Origin: the human T2T-CHM13v2.0 reference genome, Homo sapiens
Direction: 5' to 3' (one strand)
Assembly: GCF_009914755.1 (NCBI RefSeq)
Contig: NC_060925.1
DNA: 64,000 nt
Shown here: positions 3,058-33,115 of the stretch, piece by piece
Numbering within the stretch: position 1 is the stretch's first letter
How the letters are laid out: the number at the start of each line of letters is the position of its first letter
The notes under the pieces: generated by a model
Databases searched by the model: none
The model's input: the letters and a program-made list of their open reading frames with translations, nothing else
What the model was told of the DNA's origin: nothing
Program-made: the position numbers and the translations under genes

Positions 3058-4349
3058 GCTGTTGTTAATGGGGTTGCCTTCTTGATTTTTTTCCAGCTAG
3101 TTTGTTATTGGTGTATGGAAATGCTACTGATTTTTGTATGTTGATTTTGTATCTTGCATCTTTACTGAATTTAACAGTTCTATGAGTTTTTTGATGCAGT
3201 CTTTAAGTTTTCCCATATATAAGTTCATATAATCTGCAAAGAGGGACAGTTTTGACTTCCTCTTTTCTAATGTGAATGCCCTTTGTTTCTTTCTCTTGTT
3301 TAATTACTCTAGCTGGGACTTCCAGTACTATGTTGAGTGTGGAAAGTGGGCATCCTTGTCTGGTTCTAGTTCTTAGAGGAAAAGCTTTGACCATTTCCCC
3401 ATTCAGTATGATGTTAGCTGTTGGTATGTCATATATGGTCCTTGTTGTGTTGAGGTATGTTTCTTGTATGCATAATTTGTGGTGACGTTTTATCTTGAAG
3501 AGATGTTGAATTTTATCAAATGCTTTTTCTGAGCCTATTGAGATGATCATAGGATCTTAGTTCTTCGTTCTGTTGATGTGATGTGTCACATTTATTGATT
3601 TGCATATGTTGGACCATCCTTGCATCCCTGAGTTAAATCCTCCTTCATCATGTTGAATAATCTTTTTAATGCGCCGTTGGATTTGGTTTGCTAGTAGTTT
3701 CTTGAGGATTTTTGTATCTGTGTTCATCAGTAATACTGGCTTGTGGTTTTCTTCTTTTATTGCATCCTTATCTGGTTTTGATGTCAGGGTAATGCTGGTT
3801 TCGTAGAATGAATTAGGAAGAATTTTCTCTCCAGTATTTTGGAATAGTTTCAGAAGAATTGGTGTAGTTCTTTAAAAGTTTGGTAGAATTCAGCAGTAAA
3901 GGCATTTGGTCCTGGGTTTTTCTTTGTTGGAAAACTTTTTAATATTTATTCAATCTTGTTATTTGTTATTAGTCTGTTAAGGTTTTCTATTTCTTTTGGT
4001 TCAATCTTTATAGGTTATACGTGTCTAAAAGTGTATCTACTTCGTCTAGGTTTTCCAGTTTGTTGGCATATAGTTGTTCATGACAACCTCTAATGATCTT
4101 TTATATTTCTGTGGTATCAGTTGTAATGCCTCTTTTTTTGTGTCTGATTTTATTTATTTGGGTCTTCTGTCTTTTTTTCTTGGTTATTCATAGCTAATAG
4201 TTGGTCAATTTTATTTCTTTTCAAAAAACCAACTTTTCATTTTATCATTTGTGTGTGTGTGTGTGTATACACACAACATATATGACACATGCCATGTGTG
4301 TCATATATGTATATATACATATATATGATATATATATTCACTTTTTTGG

Positions 4350-9959: not shown

Positions 9960-10101
9960 TTTTTGTGGTTCTTGGAACTTGTATTGCAGTGCAGCTGGGG
10001 ACAAACCCTGATTGGATGTTTTTTTGTTGTTTTGCGGGGACATTTATGTTCTATTGTGCGCACTGGCAAACGTATGTTTCTGGAACATTGCGATTTGGAA
10101 T
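9960..10101 (+). CDS. CEPT1: CEPT1 coding exon 4, 142 nt
   Basis: ctttcttctgcag|TTTTTGTG...GGAAT|gtaagt; (V)[46 protein letters not shown](I); phase 1 in, phase 2 out, consistent with neighbours. Confidence 0.97.
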
Positions 10102-15910: not shown

Positions 15911-15995
15911 ATTCGATGTTACAGAGTCCCAGATCATAATTATAATATGCCAGCTTCTCACAGGAACCCTGGGGCCTTGGTTCTGGAACTTCACG
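15911..15995 (+). CDS. CEPT1: CEPT1 alternative exon 5A: intact paralogue of exon 5, predicted mutually exclusive
   Basis: tttgtttccttatgcatag|ATTCGATG...TTCACG|gtaact; 85 nt, phase 2 to 0, no stop; FDVTESQIIIIICQLLTGTLGPWFWNFT aligns without gaps to exon 5B (15/28 identical). Confidence 0.85.
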
Positions 15996-16697
15996 GTAAC
16001 TGCTAGAATATTCATGCTATCTGATGTACAATGGTGTGAATTCAATAAAGACAGCACCTTTGTCATGCACAGAATAATTAAAACATGAAAAATCAAAAGT
16101 CTTCCTGTTGGTATGTCACAAACAGGTTATTAGAAAACATAATTTTAATATATTAGGGCAATAAAAATCCACCCTATTAAATAAAATTTTTAAAAAGTGG
16201 TATTTCTGGTGATTTGATGCTAAAGTCAATTCTCCTGTTTGCCTATTGTGCCTATTATTTTTATTCTATGTACTATTTTTTAAAACAAATACCTTTCCAC
16301 CAGTAAATAGAATTTTTTTTATATTTCTATTTTGAAAACAGAATAAAGCAAGCAGAGTTTTTCTTAGGTAAGGAAGTTGAGATGATTCTATATTAATGTA
16401 GGAAAGATTCTGCTTATTCTGTTAACTTCTTTAGCATATACTTTAAGCAGTCTAGTACTAGTTCTGCTTGAGTTTACAGCAGTCTTGGTGTTGTATAATA
16501 TTTATGCTGGAAGCTATTCTCATTTCTGTTTGTTTTGCTTAATGTTTTTCACTCTTAGTTGTGCTTTTGAAACTAAATATCCTTAGCTTTTCATGTTACT
16601 ATAGTCATTCTTTGAATACTTTCCTTTTTTGTTTTGTTTTCTTTTCAGTAAATACATATTTCTCTAATGTACTGCTAAAAGTAATGTATCTTTTTCC

Positions 16698-20842: not shown

Positions 20843-23683
20843 AGGAGATTATTTTAAAGCAGCACCAGTCAAGATGTTCATGTACCTTCATAGATATAGA
20901 AAATTGTGGTTAGTATCATTTAATTTTCTCCCTCTACAACTTTAGGCTGTAGAAATCTAATGCGACACATAAGAAATTTGTTTTCCCATATGTTTTGTTA
21001 AAAAATCACTGGCATTTGGGTCCTCTTTGACCACATACCCCATGTGTCTTGAAGGGTTTTTTGGTTTTGTTTTTTGTTGTTTTTTTCTTGGTGTGGTAGT
21101 AGTGGTCAGTTTCTTTGTTTTGGTTTTGAGGAATAGTCCCAACACTTGGGAATATTACCACTGACGATTCTCCATTTTTAAAATAATAATAACAATAAAA
21201 AGGAAGTGATTACAGACATGCCAAATCCCTGCCCTTATATAATATTCTGTCCTCTAAATAACTGTATTTCCTGTATGATCAAAAAGATTAAAATGAGCCT
21301 CTTTGTAGTATGTGTTACAGTAAATTGAGCCCATACTGAGACTTCTTAGTGGAAAGGTGGAAGAATGGATTGTCATGTAACTAGCTGTCTTCTAAACAAA
21401 ATCATAAACTCTTGTTTATCATTTCTACCACCTGTCCCTCTTAGCTTGCTTTAGTTCCCATTCCTGGGAATGACTTTGCACTGCATGCACCCTTTTTCAT
21501 TGACAGTAAAGATTAGAACCACACTTCCAGGAGTGATGATAGGCAGTTCTCATGATTCAGAGCAGAAGATTCTCATCCTGGAGTTCAGAATATTCTTCTA
21601 AATCAGATAAGCAAATAAAAAATATTCTTAACTAACTACCAACTGGTAAGTAAGTTTTCCTGGCCCTCTCTCCATAACAGTAAGACATTATTCATCTAAT
21701 ACAATGTCAGTATTAGAATGGTTAAGAAAATTCTGTCAAAAGTTTCAAATGACTATTCTATAAAACTTGCCCTAAGAATCCCAATTTGAGACTTTGTAAA
21801 GATCTTTTATGTTTCCTGTTCTCTTTTATATTCATCCATGGTACAAAGATTAATTGCATGAGGTTCCCTCCATTTTTATTTTGTAATTCTATACTTCTGG
21901 CCCTTCCCCTTCCAAAAGGCTACTTCATATATCCAGCAAAATGTTCTAAGATGTCTACCCTCCTCCACCCAAGACAGAATCGATCATCTTTGACACCTAC
22001 CTGCTTAGTCTCCTGAATCTGCTACTGAGTGTAATTCCCCTTATTGGCAACACCACTCACCAGGTCAGCTCTACAGATTCTTTTTAGCCTAATTCAGTCC
22101 ATTTTTTTTTTCAATGTGTATATCAAGATAACTACATCACTGTATGTTTGCAGCTAAATAAGCTTCTGTTTAAAAAACATTCTTGGGCAAACAAAGACCC
22201 ATTTTTTTTTAGTTGCAAGACATTAGTTTCAACCCAGTTATTTATCACAGCATGACAGCTTATGTATCTTAAACTCACATTACAGATTATCTGCTTTACA
22301 TATTTTTAGAAATGGAGGCTCTGTTCTGTTCTGGGAATTGAATCCCTTTGCTGTTGTTACCTACTTTTAGACTAATTACTTTTAATAGATAAATTATTCA
22401 CTTTGTTGAAAAACTAGCATTATAAAAAGGTATACAGTGAAAAGTCTCCTCATTCTTATTTCCCAGCTCCCCAGTTTCTATACTATACTCCCCAATAGGT
22501 AGCCACCACTCTTAGTTTGTAATGTGTCTTTCCAGAAATTTGTTATGCAATTACTGGCAAAAATAAAAGTAGAATATTATTTGTCTCTTTTTTTACACAA
22601 AAAATAGCCTGTACACATTCTGCAACTTATTTTCACTTACTATATCTTTGCTACTTTTTATATCAGTATATAGAGAGCTGCCCTACTCTTTTTAAAAGCT
22701 GTAAAATATTCTATTTTATGGAAGTACCATAATTTATATAACTATTCCCTCTGAGGGAATTTTTTTAAATTATGCTATTATAAATTTATAATTCCATAGT
22801 GAATAACCTTGTACAAACATCATTTTGTGCAAGTATATCTGTAGGGTAAGTTCTCAAAATAGAAGGCATTTGAATCCAGTAATCTAAGAATGATAATCTC
22901 AAAATTGTAGAAGGTGCTAAGTTTACAAGAGGAAAGGAAAAACAGCATATGTTTTGCTTCTCAATCTTTTTGCCCATGTTCTTTTTTTTCACACTTTCAG
23001 GCTTCTAATTTCTGCTGCCCTGTTGTGCATGAGGTTTGTCTCTTCTTGACTGTAAAATTATTTTCAGCAACCCCAAAGCTAATTCTTGGCTGCTTTCAGT
23101 ATCTTCTTTGCAGAAGTCTCAGAGTAGTTAACCTAGTAAGAATAGGAATTTGAGAACTGGAGGAGTTTTTTTTTTCACACCTATACAATGGCAGACATTA
23201 AATGAATATATCTAAAGAACAGTAAGTTTTACAGAGTCTTAGTGATTTATGTTAACTTTAATTAAAGCACACCATTTATTTCATCTGATACTACAAAGCA
23301 CTTATTTCAAGATTTCATATTTTATAACAGTGCAATGTAATCCTCTGCTTGATACTCAAAATTTAATACCTCCTCAATTTTTTTTTTTTTTGGTGGGAAA
23401 GGTTAACCTATGGTTTCAGCCCAACTTCAATGAGTCAGAAATTTCCTTTGGAAAGGAGGGGTTTTTATTGCTCTTTGAAATTCATCAAATTAAATTAAAA
23501 GGCTTTGGATTTTATATGATTTTGCTCATAACAAATTTTTGATGCCTCCTTTTCCCCTTTCCTCAATATTTGAGATTTTTTTTTTCTATTGTGCATGATA
23601 GAGGAATGCTGCTAAGCTTGCAAGTAATTAACTTGAAATTGTTGTGACTAATTCTGCTCTTTTGGCTTTTTGTACCTAATCAG

Positions 23684-23768
23684 AATTGATGTGACTGAAG
23701 TGCAAATCTTCATAATAATCATGCATTTGCTGGCAGTGATTGGAGGACCACCTTTTTGGCAATCTATG
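23684..23768 (+). CDS. CEPT1: CEPT1 canonical exon 5 (5B), 85 nt
   Basis: tttttgtacctaatcag|AATTGATG...TCTATG|gtaact; [28 protein letters not shown]; phase 2 to 0. Confidence 0.96.
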
Positions 23769-30991: not shown

Positions 30992-31123
30992 ATTCCAGTG
31001 CTGAATATTCAAATGAAAATTTTTCCTGCACTTTGTACTGTAGCAGGGACCATATTTTCCTGTACAAATTACTTCCGTGTAATCTTCACAGGTGGTGTTG
31101 GCAAAAATGGATCAACAATAGCA
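30992..31123 (+). CDS. CEPT1: CEPT1 exon 6, 132 nt
   Basis: ctctctacccattaaag|ATTCCAGTG...ATAGCA|gtaagt; [44 protein letters not shown]. Confidence 0.96.
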
Positions 31124-32995: not shown

Positions 32996-33115
32996 GTTTT
33001 CTCTTTCTTTGATTTGATCCGCTACTGTGTCAGTGTTTGCAATCAGATTGCGTCTCACCTGCACATACATGTCTTCAGAATCAAGGTCTCTACAGCTCAT
33101 TCTAATCATCATTAA
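32996..33115 (+). CDS. CEPT1: CEPT1 last exon, coding part to TAA
   Basis: ctcttttctttccag|GTTTTCTCT...CATCATTAA; [39 protein letters not shown]; the seven in-window exons total 912 nt in one open frame. Confidence 0.96.

What the first reader, a model, noticed from the sequence alone, without database searches (positions are those of the whole stretch)
15911..15995. Hidden paralogous exon: CEPT1 has two mutually exclusive versions of exon 5
Seen: an 85-nt exon with a pyrimidine-rich acceptor (..ttccttatgcatag) and donor G|gtaact lies 7.7 kb upstream of canonical exon 5 (23684-23768), which is also 85 nt, phase 2 to 0, and ends G|gtaact. The translations align without gaps: FDVTESQIIIIICQLLTGTLGPWFWNFT vs [28 protein letters not shown], 15/28 identical. 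Of those 15 shared residues, 11 use different codons (GTT/GTG, ACA/ACT, GAG/GAA, CAG/CAA, CTT/TTG, GGG/GGA, TTC/TTT etc.), and the flanking introns show no obvious similarity beyond the donor. Inference: an ancient tandem exon duplication whose copies were both kept by protein-level selection, giving two same-length CEPT1 enzymes. It may already be present as a minor transcript in GENCODE/RefSeq; I cannot check.
Basis: partly seen in the sequence, partly recalled or inferred. Interest (0 to 1): 0.9.

Follow-up and report, generated by a model that had tools for sequence, protein, structure and literature searches.

The report
Known mutually exclusive CEPT1 exon pair
The human lipid-synthesis gene CEPT1 has two interchangeable versions of one exon, an ancient arrangement that is already annotated and published, and the swap replaces a membrane helix lining the enzyme's lipid-tail pocket.

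Summary
Exon 5a (15911-15995) and exon 5b (23684-23768) are both 85 nt, in the same phase, with AG acceptors and G|GTAACT donors. They align without gaps: 15 of 28 in-exon residues are identical, and 11 of those use different codons. No other place in the window comes close.

It is not hidden. The hub's RefSeq table lists 15911-15995 as an exon. Hatje 2017 lists CEPT1 as mutually exclusive exon (MXE) cluster 215. Martinez-Gomez 2021 names the CEPT1 exon as a tandem duplicate conserved in sharks and rays.

I confirmed this independently. 44 of 140 exon-5 segments in 173 vertebrate CEPT1 models are 5a-type, from mammals to chimaera. None of 105 CHPT1 segments is.

Including both exons or neither shifts the frame to an early stop.

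The exon encodes TM5 (residues 211-238), which lines the acyl-chain chamber. 5a changes two of its four tail-contacting residues, V216S and F219I. A change in diacylglycerol (DAG) selectivity is my inference and is untested.

Trees lean, without deciding, towards 5a predating the CEPT1/CHPT1 split.

Verdict: real, functional, already known.

The parts
9960..10101 (+). CEPT1 exon 4, the constitutive upstream exon. It ends with the first two bases (AT) of codon Ile210.
   Evidence: Its translation recovered 749 CEPT1/CHPT1-family proteins.
15911..15995 (+). Exon 5a, the alternative member of the mutually exclusive pair. It is 85 nt and encodes residues 211-238, an alternative TM5.
   Evidence: It is listed as an exon of other RefSeq transcripts in the hub table. 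An identical peptide sits in the spliced isoform P0062, a cluster of 215 member sequences.
15996..16125 (+). Intron flank just 3' of exon 5a. It is conserved among mammals and may be a splicing-regulatory region.
   Evidence: In the read-through frame, 24 of the first 30 codons are identical between human and a camel read-through model (P0017), and similarity continues past the human stop at codon 31. Its function is inferred, not shown.
21919..22063 (+). A 145-nt alternative exon between 5a and 5b. It carries an in-frame stop and is probably a poison exon.
   Evidence: Hub table. In every combination I built, the stop falls at 21947 or 21991, more than 490 nt upstream of the last junction.
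23684..23768 (+). Exon 5b, the member of the pair used in the selected transcript. It is 85 nt and encodes TM5 of the enzyme whose structure was solved.
   Evidence: The peptide is 100% identical to PDB 8gyw chain positions 184-211 (E 4e-13).
30992..31123 (+). CEPT1 exon 6, the constitutive downstream exon joined to either 5a or 5b.
   Evidence: The isoforms listed continue with the exon-6 sequence directly after either exon type.

Best explanation
Exons 5a and 5b are a mutually exclusive pair that arose by tandem duplication of one exon before the jawed vertebrates diverged.

Shown here:
- Each mRNA that keeps the reading frame carries exactly one of the two. Both are 85 nt, which is not a multiple of three. 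Taking both puts a TGA at 23687, and taking neither puts a stop at 31002. Each stop lies more than 400 nt upstream of the last exon junction, so such mRNAs should be removed by nonsense-mediated decay.
- The two products are 416-residue CEPT1 enzymes that differ only in residues 211-238. This stretch is transmembrane helix 5 and its luminal end.

Taken from the published structures:
- TM5 lines the hydrophobic chamber that holds the lipid acyl tails.
- TM5 forms one side of the TM5/TM6 slit through which diacylglycerol is proposed to enter.

Inferred:
- 5a keeps D212, V213, E215, Q217 and I220. It replaces two of the four tail-contacting TM5 residues, V216 with S and F219 with I. Across vertebrates these positions hold S/A/T and C/I/S in 5a.
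- I therefore expect the 5a isoform to have the same catalytic site but a differently shaped lipid-tail pocket, and so a different preference among diacylglycerol (or alkyl-acylglycerol) species.

I put about 0.95 on the mutually exclusive pair and its coding function, and about 0.45 on the change of lipid selectivity.
For: - **Anatomy and homology:**
- **Frame logic:**
- **Prior annotation and RNA-seq:** the hub's RefSeq table lists the exon. Hatje 2017 Datasets EV5 and EV6 list CEPT1 MXE cluster 215 with PSI differing between tissues (Kruskal-Wallis adjusted P about 6e-10). Their validation rule required junction reads from each exon that bridge the other. Martinez-Gomez 2021 describes the CEPT1 exon as a tandem duplicate conserved in sharks and rays.
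- **Conservation found here:** 135 of 173 CEPT1 models had an exon-5 segment, giving 140 CEPT1 segments. 44 were 5a-type and 96 were 5b-type.
- **Gene order:** five mis-joined models (Varanus, Sceloporus, Bos, Menidia, Myotis davidii) hold both exons, always 5a before 5b.
- **No decay:** none of the 44 5a-type segments collected is broken. The collecting pattern fixes the segment length, so a decayed copy could have gone unmatched.
- **Spliced mRNAs exist:** three unnamed records come from contigs of only 1.9-2.4 kb yet encode full-length 5a isoforms (P0042, P0118, P0370). They must be spliced transcripts.
- **Structure:** 5b is 8gyw positions 184-211, which are residues 211-238.
- **Published roles of TM5 residues (passages of PMC10156783):**
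  - V213, V216, F219 and I220 of TM5 coordinate the acyl tails.
  - V216A is reported to alter DAG utilisation, and V216L loses 40% activity.
  - Q217 hydrogen-bonds the sn-1 carbonyl.
  - DAG enters through the TM5/TM6 cleft.
- **Other structures:** the same slit or channel is described in Xenopus CHPT1 and yeast CPT1.
- **Residue differences:** for human-type sequences, and across vertebrates.
Against: - **No expression data of my own.** I could not see any human junction counts or peptides myself. The evidence for human expression is RefSeq plus supplement rows from Hatje 2017.
- **Ambiguous exon ids.** From the files I could open, I cannot tell which of the two exon ids in Hatje's tables is 5a.
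- **5a is less constrained than 5b.** Against shark, 5a is 13 of 28 identical to human and 5b is 20 of 28. The rest of the protein is about 79-80% identical. 5a is under weaker constraint than 5b.
- **No published work on the isoform.** None of the passages I read from the three structure papers or from a 2026 Kennedy-pathway review mentions a CEPT1 isoform. The selectivity change therefore rests only on which residues differ.
- **Key paper unread.** The mutagenesis paper behind the V216A result (Henneberry 2002) could not be read.
- **No model.** No structure prediction of the 5a isoform could be made.
Confidence: 0.85

Rival explanations
1. The 5a isoform is made and selected for, but the difference that matters is not lipid-tail selectivity. 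It could be folding, stability, trafficking, partner binding, or modification of the luminal TM5-TM6 loop. One candidate is the Asn236-x-Thr238 sequon that only 5a carries.
For: An N-x-S/T motif at 236-238 is present in 22 of 37 distinct 5a-type segments. It is absent from 0 of 61 5b-type, 0 of 89 CHPT1-type and 0 of 67 distant family members. Asn236 itself is present in 89% of 5a types. The C-terminal end of TM5 should face the lumen, because both termini are cytosolic and there are ten TMs (then counting helices, which is inference). Eight of the 13 differing residues lie in the C-terminal half (227-238), away from the residues named as tail contacts.
Against: The sequon lies only a few residues past the helix end, in a short loop. 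From recalled knowledge, that is usually too close to the membrane for the oligosaccharyltransferase. It is missing in the sharks, rays, chimaera, coelacanth and bowfin sampled and in some of the teleosts. The substitutions at 216 and 219 are just as lineage-wide, and they sit at positions with published functional effects.
Confidence: 0.3
2. Exon 5a acts mainly as a regulatory, unproductive exon. Its inclusion together with 5b, or use of its internal acceptor, sends CEPT1 mRNA to nonsense-mediated decay and tunes enzyme level. The 5a protein would be of little importance.
For: Joint inclusion gives a stop at 23687. One unnamed transcript-like record (P0012, 5 member sequences) joins exon 4 to a site inside 5a and reads its 3' part out of frame. 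A true poison exon lies in the same intron, at 21919-22063.
Against: A pure decay switch does not need a conserved peptide. Yet among the 37 distinct 5a-type segments E215, G231 and W235 are invariant and D212, T214 and P232 are kept in 94-97%. In the human 5a/5b comparison third codon positions are randomised (6 of 28 identical). About 40 named species have models that splice 5a alone between exons 4 and 6.
Confidence: 0.07
3. 15911-15995 is a decaying pseudo-exon, or a chance look-alike that prediction pipelines pick up.
For: Most orthologue evidence comes from automatic gene models, which can propagate one another's predictions.
Against: Its score of 61 compares with a next-best 19 among 29,679 windows. 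The type-specific signature is kept over the whole span of jawed vertebrates. Transcript-sized unnamed contigs encode the 5a isoform. Hatje 2017 validated the pair with RNA-seq.
Confidence: 0.01

Closest known systems
The CEPT1 mutually exclusive exon cluster itself (Hatje et al. 2017, cluster 215; Martinez-Gomez et al. 2021; RefSeq alternative transcript)
   Same: Taken to be the same feature: same gene and the same kind of exon pair, and one search finds no other homologous copy in this window. The exon is listed in RefSeq (hub table). It is reported as a tandem duplicate conserved to sharks and rays and as differentially included between tissues.
   Different: Those sources list it in catalogues or mention it briefly. 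Neither states which part of the enzyme the exon encodes. The coordinates in Hatje's Dataset EV2 (.xls) could not be opened.
Other human tandem-duplicated mutually exclusive exons in membrane or lipid proteins, such as FAR1 exons 9a/9b and SLC25A3
   Same: Equal or near-equal length, same phase, homologous peptides, and ancient origin. One exon is broadly used and the other more restricted (passages). Frame incompatibility as the enforcing mechanism is described for many such pairs.
   Different: For those genes there is disease or tissue-function evidence for the two forms (passages). For CEPT1, none of my searches found a functional study of the 5a form. Details of SLC25A3 beyond its listing are recalled, not checked.
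CHPT1, the paralogue of CEPT1
   Same: Same fold, and the homologous exon encodes the same TM5.
   Different: Only one exon type was seen: 105 of 105 segments from 107 CHPT1 models are CHPT1-type and none is 5a-type. The CHPT1 type shares Gly230 with 5b (83% and 98%), while 5a and distant relatives have a hydrophobic residue there.

Membership tests
Mutually exclusive exons from tandem exon duplication | Neighbouring exons between the same two constitutive exons | tested here: met
   5a and 5b both lie between exon 4 (ends 10101) and exon 6 (starts 30992), 7.7 kb apart (and hub table). One annotated 145-nt poison exon lies between them.
Mutually exclusive exons from tandem exon duplication | Same length class and same phase, with usable splice sites | tested here: met
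   Both are 85 nt, with an AG acceptor and a G|GTAACT donor. Both complete the Ile210 codon and end in phase 0.
Mutually exclusive exons from tandem exon duplication | Homologous sequence beyond chance | tested here: met
   15 of 28 residues are identical without gaps. The score is 61 against a next-best 19 of 29,679 windows. The PDB hits fall only at the homologous position.
Mutually exclusive exons from tandem exon duplication | Joint inclusion or joint skipping is unproductive or absent | tested here: met
   Both exons in gives a stop at 23687. Neither gives a stop at 31002. The stops lie 499 and 407 nt upstream of the last junction. That such mRNAs are in fact degraded is inferred.
Mutually exclusive exons from tandem exon duplication | Junction reads from each exon to the flanking exons that bridge the other | not testable with these tools
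   No RNA-seq is available here. Hatje 2017 applied this criterion and lists CEPT1 cluster 215 among the analysed MXEs.
Mutually exclusive exons from tandem exon duplication | Both copies conserved in orthologues | tested here: met
   44 5a-type and 96 5b-type segments in 173 CEPT1 models, from mammals to chimaera. Gene order 5a then 5b in five models that hold both.
CDP-alcohol phosphotransferase (Pfam PF01066) | Match to the family profile above its curated cut-off, for both isoforms | tested here: met
   The 5a isoform P0062 scores 47.5 bits and the 5b isoform P0029 scores 47.7 bits, against a cut-off of 22. The match runs to residue 235 in the 5b form but stops at residue 199 in the 5a form.
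Poison (decay-inducing) cassette exon | Inclusion alone introduces a stop or a frameshift | tested here: not met
   5a alone keeps the frame through to the normal stop at 33113.
RNA-structure-guided exon choice (docking and selector pairings) | Competing conserved complementary intron segments next to the variable exons | tested here: inconclusive
   Within about 500 nt of either exon there are only short, AT-rich inverted repeats of 76-92% complementarity. No genomic DNA of other vertebrates was available to test conservation.

The most novel reading that the evidence does not exclude
Exon 5a may be the older, invertebrate-like version of TM5. On this reading it was already paired with the ancestor of 5b before CEPT1 and CHPT1 separated, and CHPT1 later lost it. 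The 5a isoform would then be a third vertebrate choline/ethanolamine phosphotransferase activity with its own lipid-tail preference (smaller, more polar residues at 216 and 219). It has been overlooked because the human CEPT1 structure read here (8gyw) used the 5b form.

Leaning support:
- The split {5b + CHPT1} is never rejected (p-AU 0.48, 0.40, 0.32).
- The split {5a + 5b} gives p-AU 0.026, 0.069 and 0.20 in three disjoint subsamples.
- Gly230 is shared by 5b and CHPT1 only. Phe211, small residues at 216 and Pro232 are shared by 5a and distant relatives, including a named scorpion protein.

Caveat: there are only 28 columns, 5a evolves faster so long-branch attraction is possible, and no cyclostome or invertebrate gene structures were available.
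Probability: 0.25. Interest if true: 0.55.

Novelty: already known. Interest (0 to 1): 0.25.

Why it matters
CEPT1 carries out the last step of the Kennedy pathway for both phosphatidylcholine and phosphatidylethanolamine. The exon pair is known, but only as a catalogue entry. The solved human structure is the 5b form, and none of my literature searches found a study of the 5a enzyme.

The swapped segment is the helix that lines the acyl-chain chamber and the proposed diacylglycerol entry slit. It changes V216, the residue reported to shift DAG utilisation when mutated. The pair is therefore a ready-made natural experiment on how phospholipid molecular species are chosen. That makes it a useful lead for lipid biochemists, but it is not a discovery.

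Tried and rejected
- **Searching with the 5a peptide.** I did not pad it. I used exon 4 as the query instead and read exon 5 out of the hits.
- **Structure prediction of the 5a isoform.** I built alignment A2 from 48 of the 60 clean full-length models found. The tool was not accepting jobs at either attempt, so there is no model and no fold search.
- **Henneberry 2002, the source of the V216A result.** The paper is not held. I cite it only through PMC10156783.
- **Cyclostomes.** I hoped the divergent 5a-type record P0118 was one. Its nearest named relative is a lungfish (87% identity). The age therefore stays at jawed vertebrates, as already published.
- **Which Hatje exon id is 5a.**
  - One id is broadly expressed (Gini 0.05) and the other is more tissue-restricted (Gini 0.47, top tissue duodenum) in the Human Protein Atlas sheet.
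  - The files that would map ids to coordinates are .xls or .pdf and could not be read.
- **Supplements of the two Martinez-Gomez papers.** The files held contain no CEPT1 row.
- **RNA pairing near the exons.** Nothing notable was found.
- **Rfam over 8000-34000.** No family matched.
- **Trees.** The 254-row quick tree was poorly searched. A constrained tree beat it by 51 log-likelihood units, and four further constraint tests did not finish. One 90-row run timed out. I replaced these with three disjoint subsamples of about 55 rows, using fast searches. From the outgroup pool I dropped 12 long-branch rows, and 11 representatives that I guessed to be vertebrate were excluded (P0123, P0126, P0127, P0130, P0132, P0133, P0139, P0143, P0144, P0173, P0258).
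- **First classifier.** The rule 'first residue F' misfiled two 5a-type exons as 5b-type, Bos P0040 and the caecilian P0064. One search replaced it with a score-based rule.

Full report
**Observation**

Exon 5a (15911-15995) follows ..ttccttatgcatag and is followed by gtaact. Exon 5b (23684-23768) follows ..cctaatcag and is also followed by gtaact.

Exon 4 ends at 10101 with two bases of a codon, and exon 6 starts at 30992. Both 85-nt exons complete that codon to Ile210 and end in phase 0.

The translations align without gaps:
- 15 of 28 in-exon residues are identical.
- 11 of the identical residues use different codons.
- 46 of 85 bases are identical.
- Identity by codon position is 19, 20 and 6 of 28.

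Third positions are therefore randomised while the protein is kept.

**Chance**

I scanned 29,679 stop-free 28-residue windows in all six frames of the window with the 5b peptide. 5a scored 61 and the next best scored 19 (mean -30, sd 11.7). There is no third copy.

Searched against 177,635 PDB sequences, the 5a peptide hits only CHPT1 (8ero, E 0.038) and CEPT1 (8gyw, E 0.082), both at the homologous position. The introns 150 nt either side align no better than background.

**Already known**

The hub's RefSeq table lists 15911-15995 as an exon of other CEPT1 transcripts.

Martinez-Gomez et al. 2021 (PMC8373072, passages read) say three things:
- Hatje et al. identified a tandem-duplicated exon in CEPT1.
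- GENCODE had not yet annotated it at that time.
- It is conserved in sharks and rays.

Hatje et al. 2017 (PMC5740500) list CEPT1 as MXE cluster 215 in Datasets EV5 and EV6:
- PSI differs between Human Protein Atlas tissues (adjusted P about 6e-10).
- One exon is broadly used (Gini 0.05) and the other is more restricted (Gini 0.47).
- Their validation required junction reads from each exon that bridge the other.

Searches for CEPT1 with 'mutually exclusive', 'splice variant', 'homologous exon' or 'tandem exon duplication' found no functional study of the 5a form.

**Independent check of conservation**

The 28-residue peptide was too short for the protein search. I searched with exon 4 instead (46 residues, longer proteins allowed). 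That gave 749 hits, of which 120 were listed. Two further searches started from a CHPT1 and from a divergent 5a-type protein.

Results for CEPT1:
- Of 173 CEPT1 models, 135 had a recognisable exon-5 segment.
- These gave 140 segments: 44 were 5a-type and 96 were 5b-type.

The 5a-type carriers include about 40 named species, by my own count from the listings. They are:
- mammals, including a cluster of 215 member sequences whose 5a is identical to the human one
- birds, lizards and geckos
- frogs, a newt and a caecilian
- coelacanth and a lungfish-like record
- sturgeon, paddlefish, bowfin and teleosts
- sharks, rays and a chimaera

In clean models, 5a is spliced directly between the exon-4 and exon-6 sequences. 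Five mis-joined models hold both exons, always 5a first. Three unnamed records of 1.9-2.4 kb encode full-length 5a isoforms, so they are spliced transcripts.

Each type has its own conserved signature:

| Position | 5a type | 5b type |
|---|---|---|
| 211 | F | I |
| 216 | S/A/T | V |
| 219 | C/I/S | F |
| 224 | Q | Y/H |
| 227 | T | A |
| 230 | L/V | G |
| 232 | P | variable |
| 236 | N | Q/E |

5a evolves faster than 5b. Against human, 5a and 5b are 21 and 27 of 28 identical in a bird, and 13 and 20 of 28 in a shark. The rest of the protein is 88% and about 79-80% identical in the same comparisons.

**How exclusivity is enforced**

With both exons included, the frame shifts to a TGA at 23687. 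With neither, it shifts to a stop at 31002. These stops lie 499 and 407 nt upstream of the last exon junction. By the usual rule, such mRNAs are decay substrates. That step is inferred.

I found no sign of competing RNA pairings near the exons and no Rfam family in 8000-34000. The intron just 3' of 5a is unusually conserved among mammals: 24 of 30 read-through codons are identical between human and camel. This is typical of regulated exons, but it has not been tested.

**What the exon encodes**

The 5b peptide is 100% identical to positions 184-211 of the 8gyw chain, which are residues 211-238.

The human CEPT1 structure paper (PMC10156783, passages read) reports:
- V213, V216, F219 and I220 of TM5 are among the residues that hold the acyl tails.
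- V216A is reported to change DAG utilisation.
- V216L loses 40% of activity.
- Q217 hydrogen-bonds the sn-1 carbonyl.
- Diacylglycerol is proposed to enter through the TM5/TM6 cleft.

The Xenopus CHPT1 and yeast CPT1 papers describe the same slit or channel.

The 5a and 5b isoforms differ at 13 positions within 211-238. D212, V213, E215, Q217 and I220 are kept, while V216 becomes S and F219 becomes I. The other changes are at 211, 223, 224, 227-230, 233 and 236-238.

I infer an enzyme with the same catalytic centre but a reshaped lipid-tail pocket. This is untested.

5a also carries an N-x-S/T motif at 236-238. It is present in 22 of 37 distinct 5a-type sequences and in none of 217 other family segments. 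It lies very close to the membrane, so I do not claim that it is glycosylated.

**Origin**

No 5a-type exon was seen in CHPT1: 105 of 105 segments from 107 models are CHPT1-type.

On the 28 columns, 5b-type exons form one group (SH-aLRT 97). 5a-type exons held together as one group are not rejected (p-AU 0.78).

AU tests in three disjoint subsamples gave:

| Split tested | p-AU, subsample 1 | p-AU, subsample 2 | p-AU, subsample 3 |
|---|---|---|---|
| {5b + CHPT1} | 0.48 | 0.40 | 0.32 |
| {5a + 5b} | 0.026 | 0.069 | 0.20 |
| {5a + CHPT1} | 0.046 | 0.011 | 0.012 |

Gly230 is shared by 5b and CHPT1. Phe211, a small residue at 216 and Pro232 are shared by 5a and distant relatives.

This leans towards a duplication before the CEPT1/CHPT1 split, with later loss of 5a in CHPT1. 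The data are short, 5a is the faster copy, and I had no cyclostome or invertebrate gene structures. It remains a lead only.

**Limits**

- No RNA-seq, proteomics or non-human genomic DNA could be examined.
- Most orthologue evidence is from automatic gene models.

**Verdict**

This is a real, ancient, protein-coding mutually exclusive exon pair.

- the mapping to the acyl-chain-lining helix
- the absence of the pair from CHPT1
- the 5a-only sequon
- a weak hint about the pair's age

Noticed in passing
window 21919-22063: The annotated 145-nt alternative exon between 5a and 5b brings an in-frame stop (at 21947, or at 21991 after 5a) in every combination I built. It looks like a poison exon.
   Followed up: partly
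window 23684-23735: The annotated short form of exon 5b uses an internal GT donor after 23735. It removes 33 nt in frame, which is 11 residues at the luminal end of TM5, and the normal stop is kept.
   Followed up: partly
window 15996-16125: The intron just downstream of 5a is strongly conserved between human, camel and cow, as seen in read-through gene models P0017 and P0040. 24 of the first 30 codons are identical between human and camel, and the human sequence has a stop at codon 31.
   Followed up: partly
P0012 (unnamed record, 208 aa) against window 15954-15995: A transcript-like record joins exon 4 to a site inside 5a and reads the 3' part of 5a out of frame, with a 13-residue match to the shifted frame. 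It ends after four more residues. This is an unproductive splice variant of the same exon.
   Followed up: partly
residues 236-238 of the 5a isoform (window 15987-15995): The Asn-x-Thr motif is found only in 5a-type exons: 22 of 37 distinct sequences, mostly tetrapods and sturgeon plus some teleosts, and 0 of 217 other family segments.
   Followed up: partly
window 3768-3851: The third-best match to the 5b peptide (score 32) contains a stop and lies in the intron upstream of exon 3. From memory it resembles the end of a LINE-1 ORF2. I treated it as a chance resemblance.
   Followed up: no
P0062 and P0029: The Pfam CDP-OH_P_transf match covers residues 82-235 in the 5b isoform but only 82-199 in the 5a isoform. 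The family profile evidently models a 5b-like TM5.
   Followed up: no
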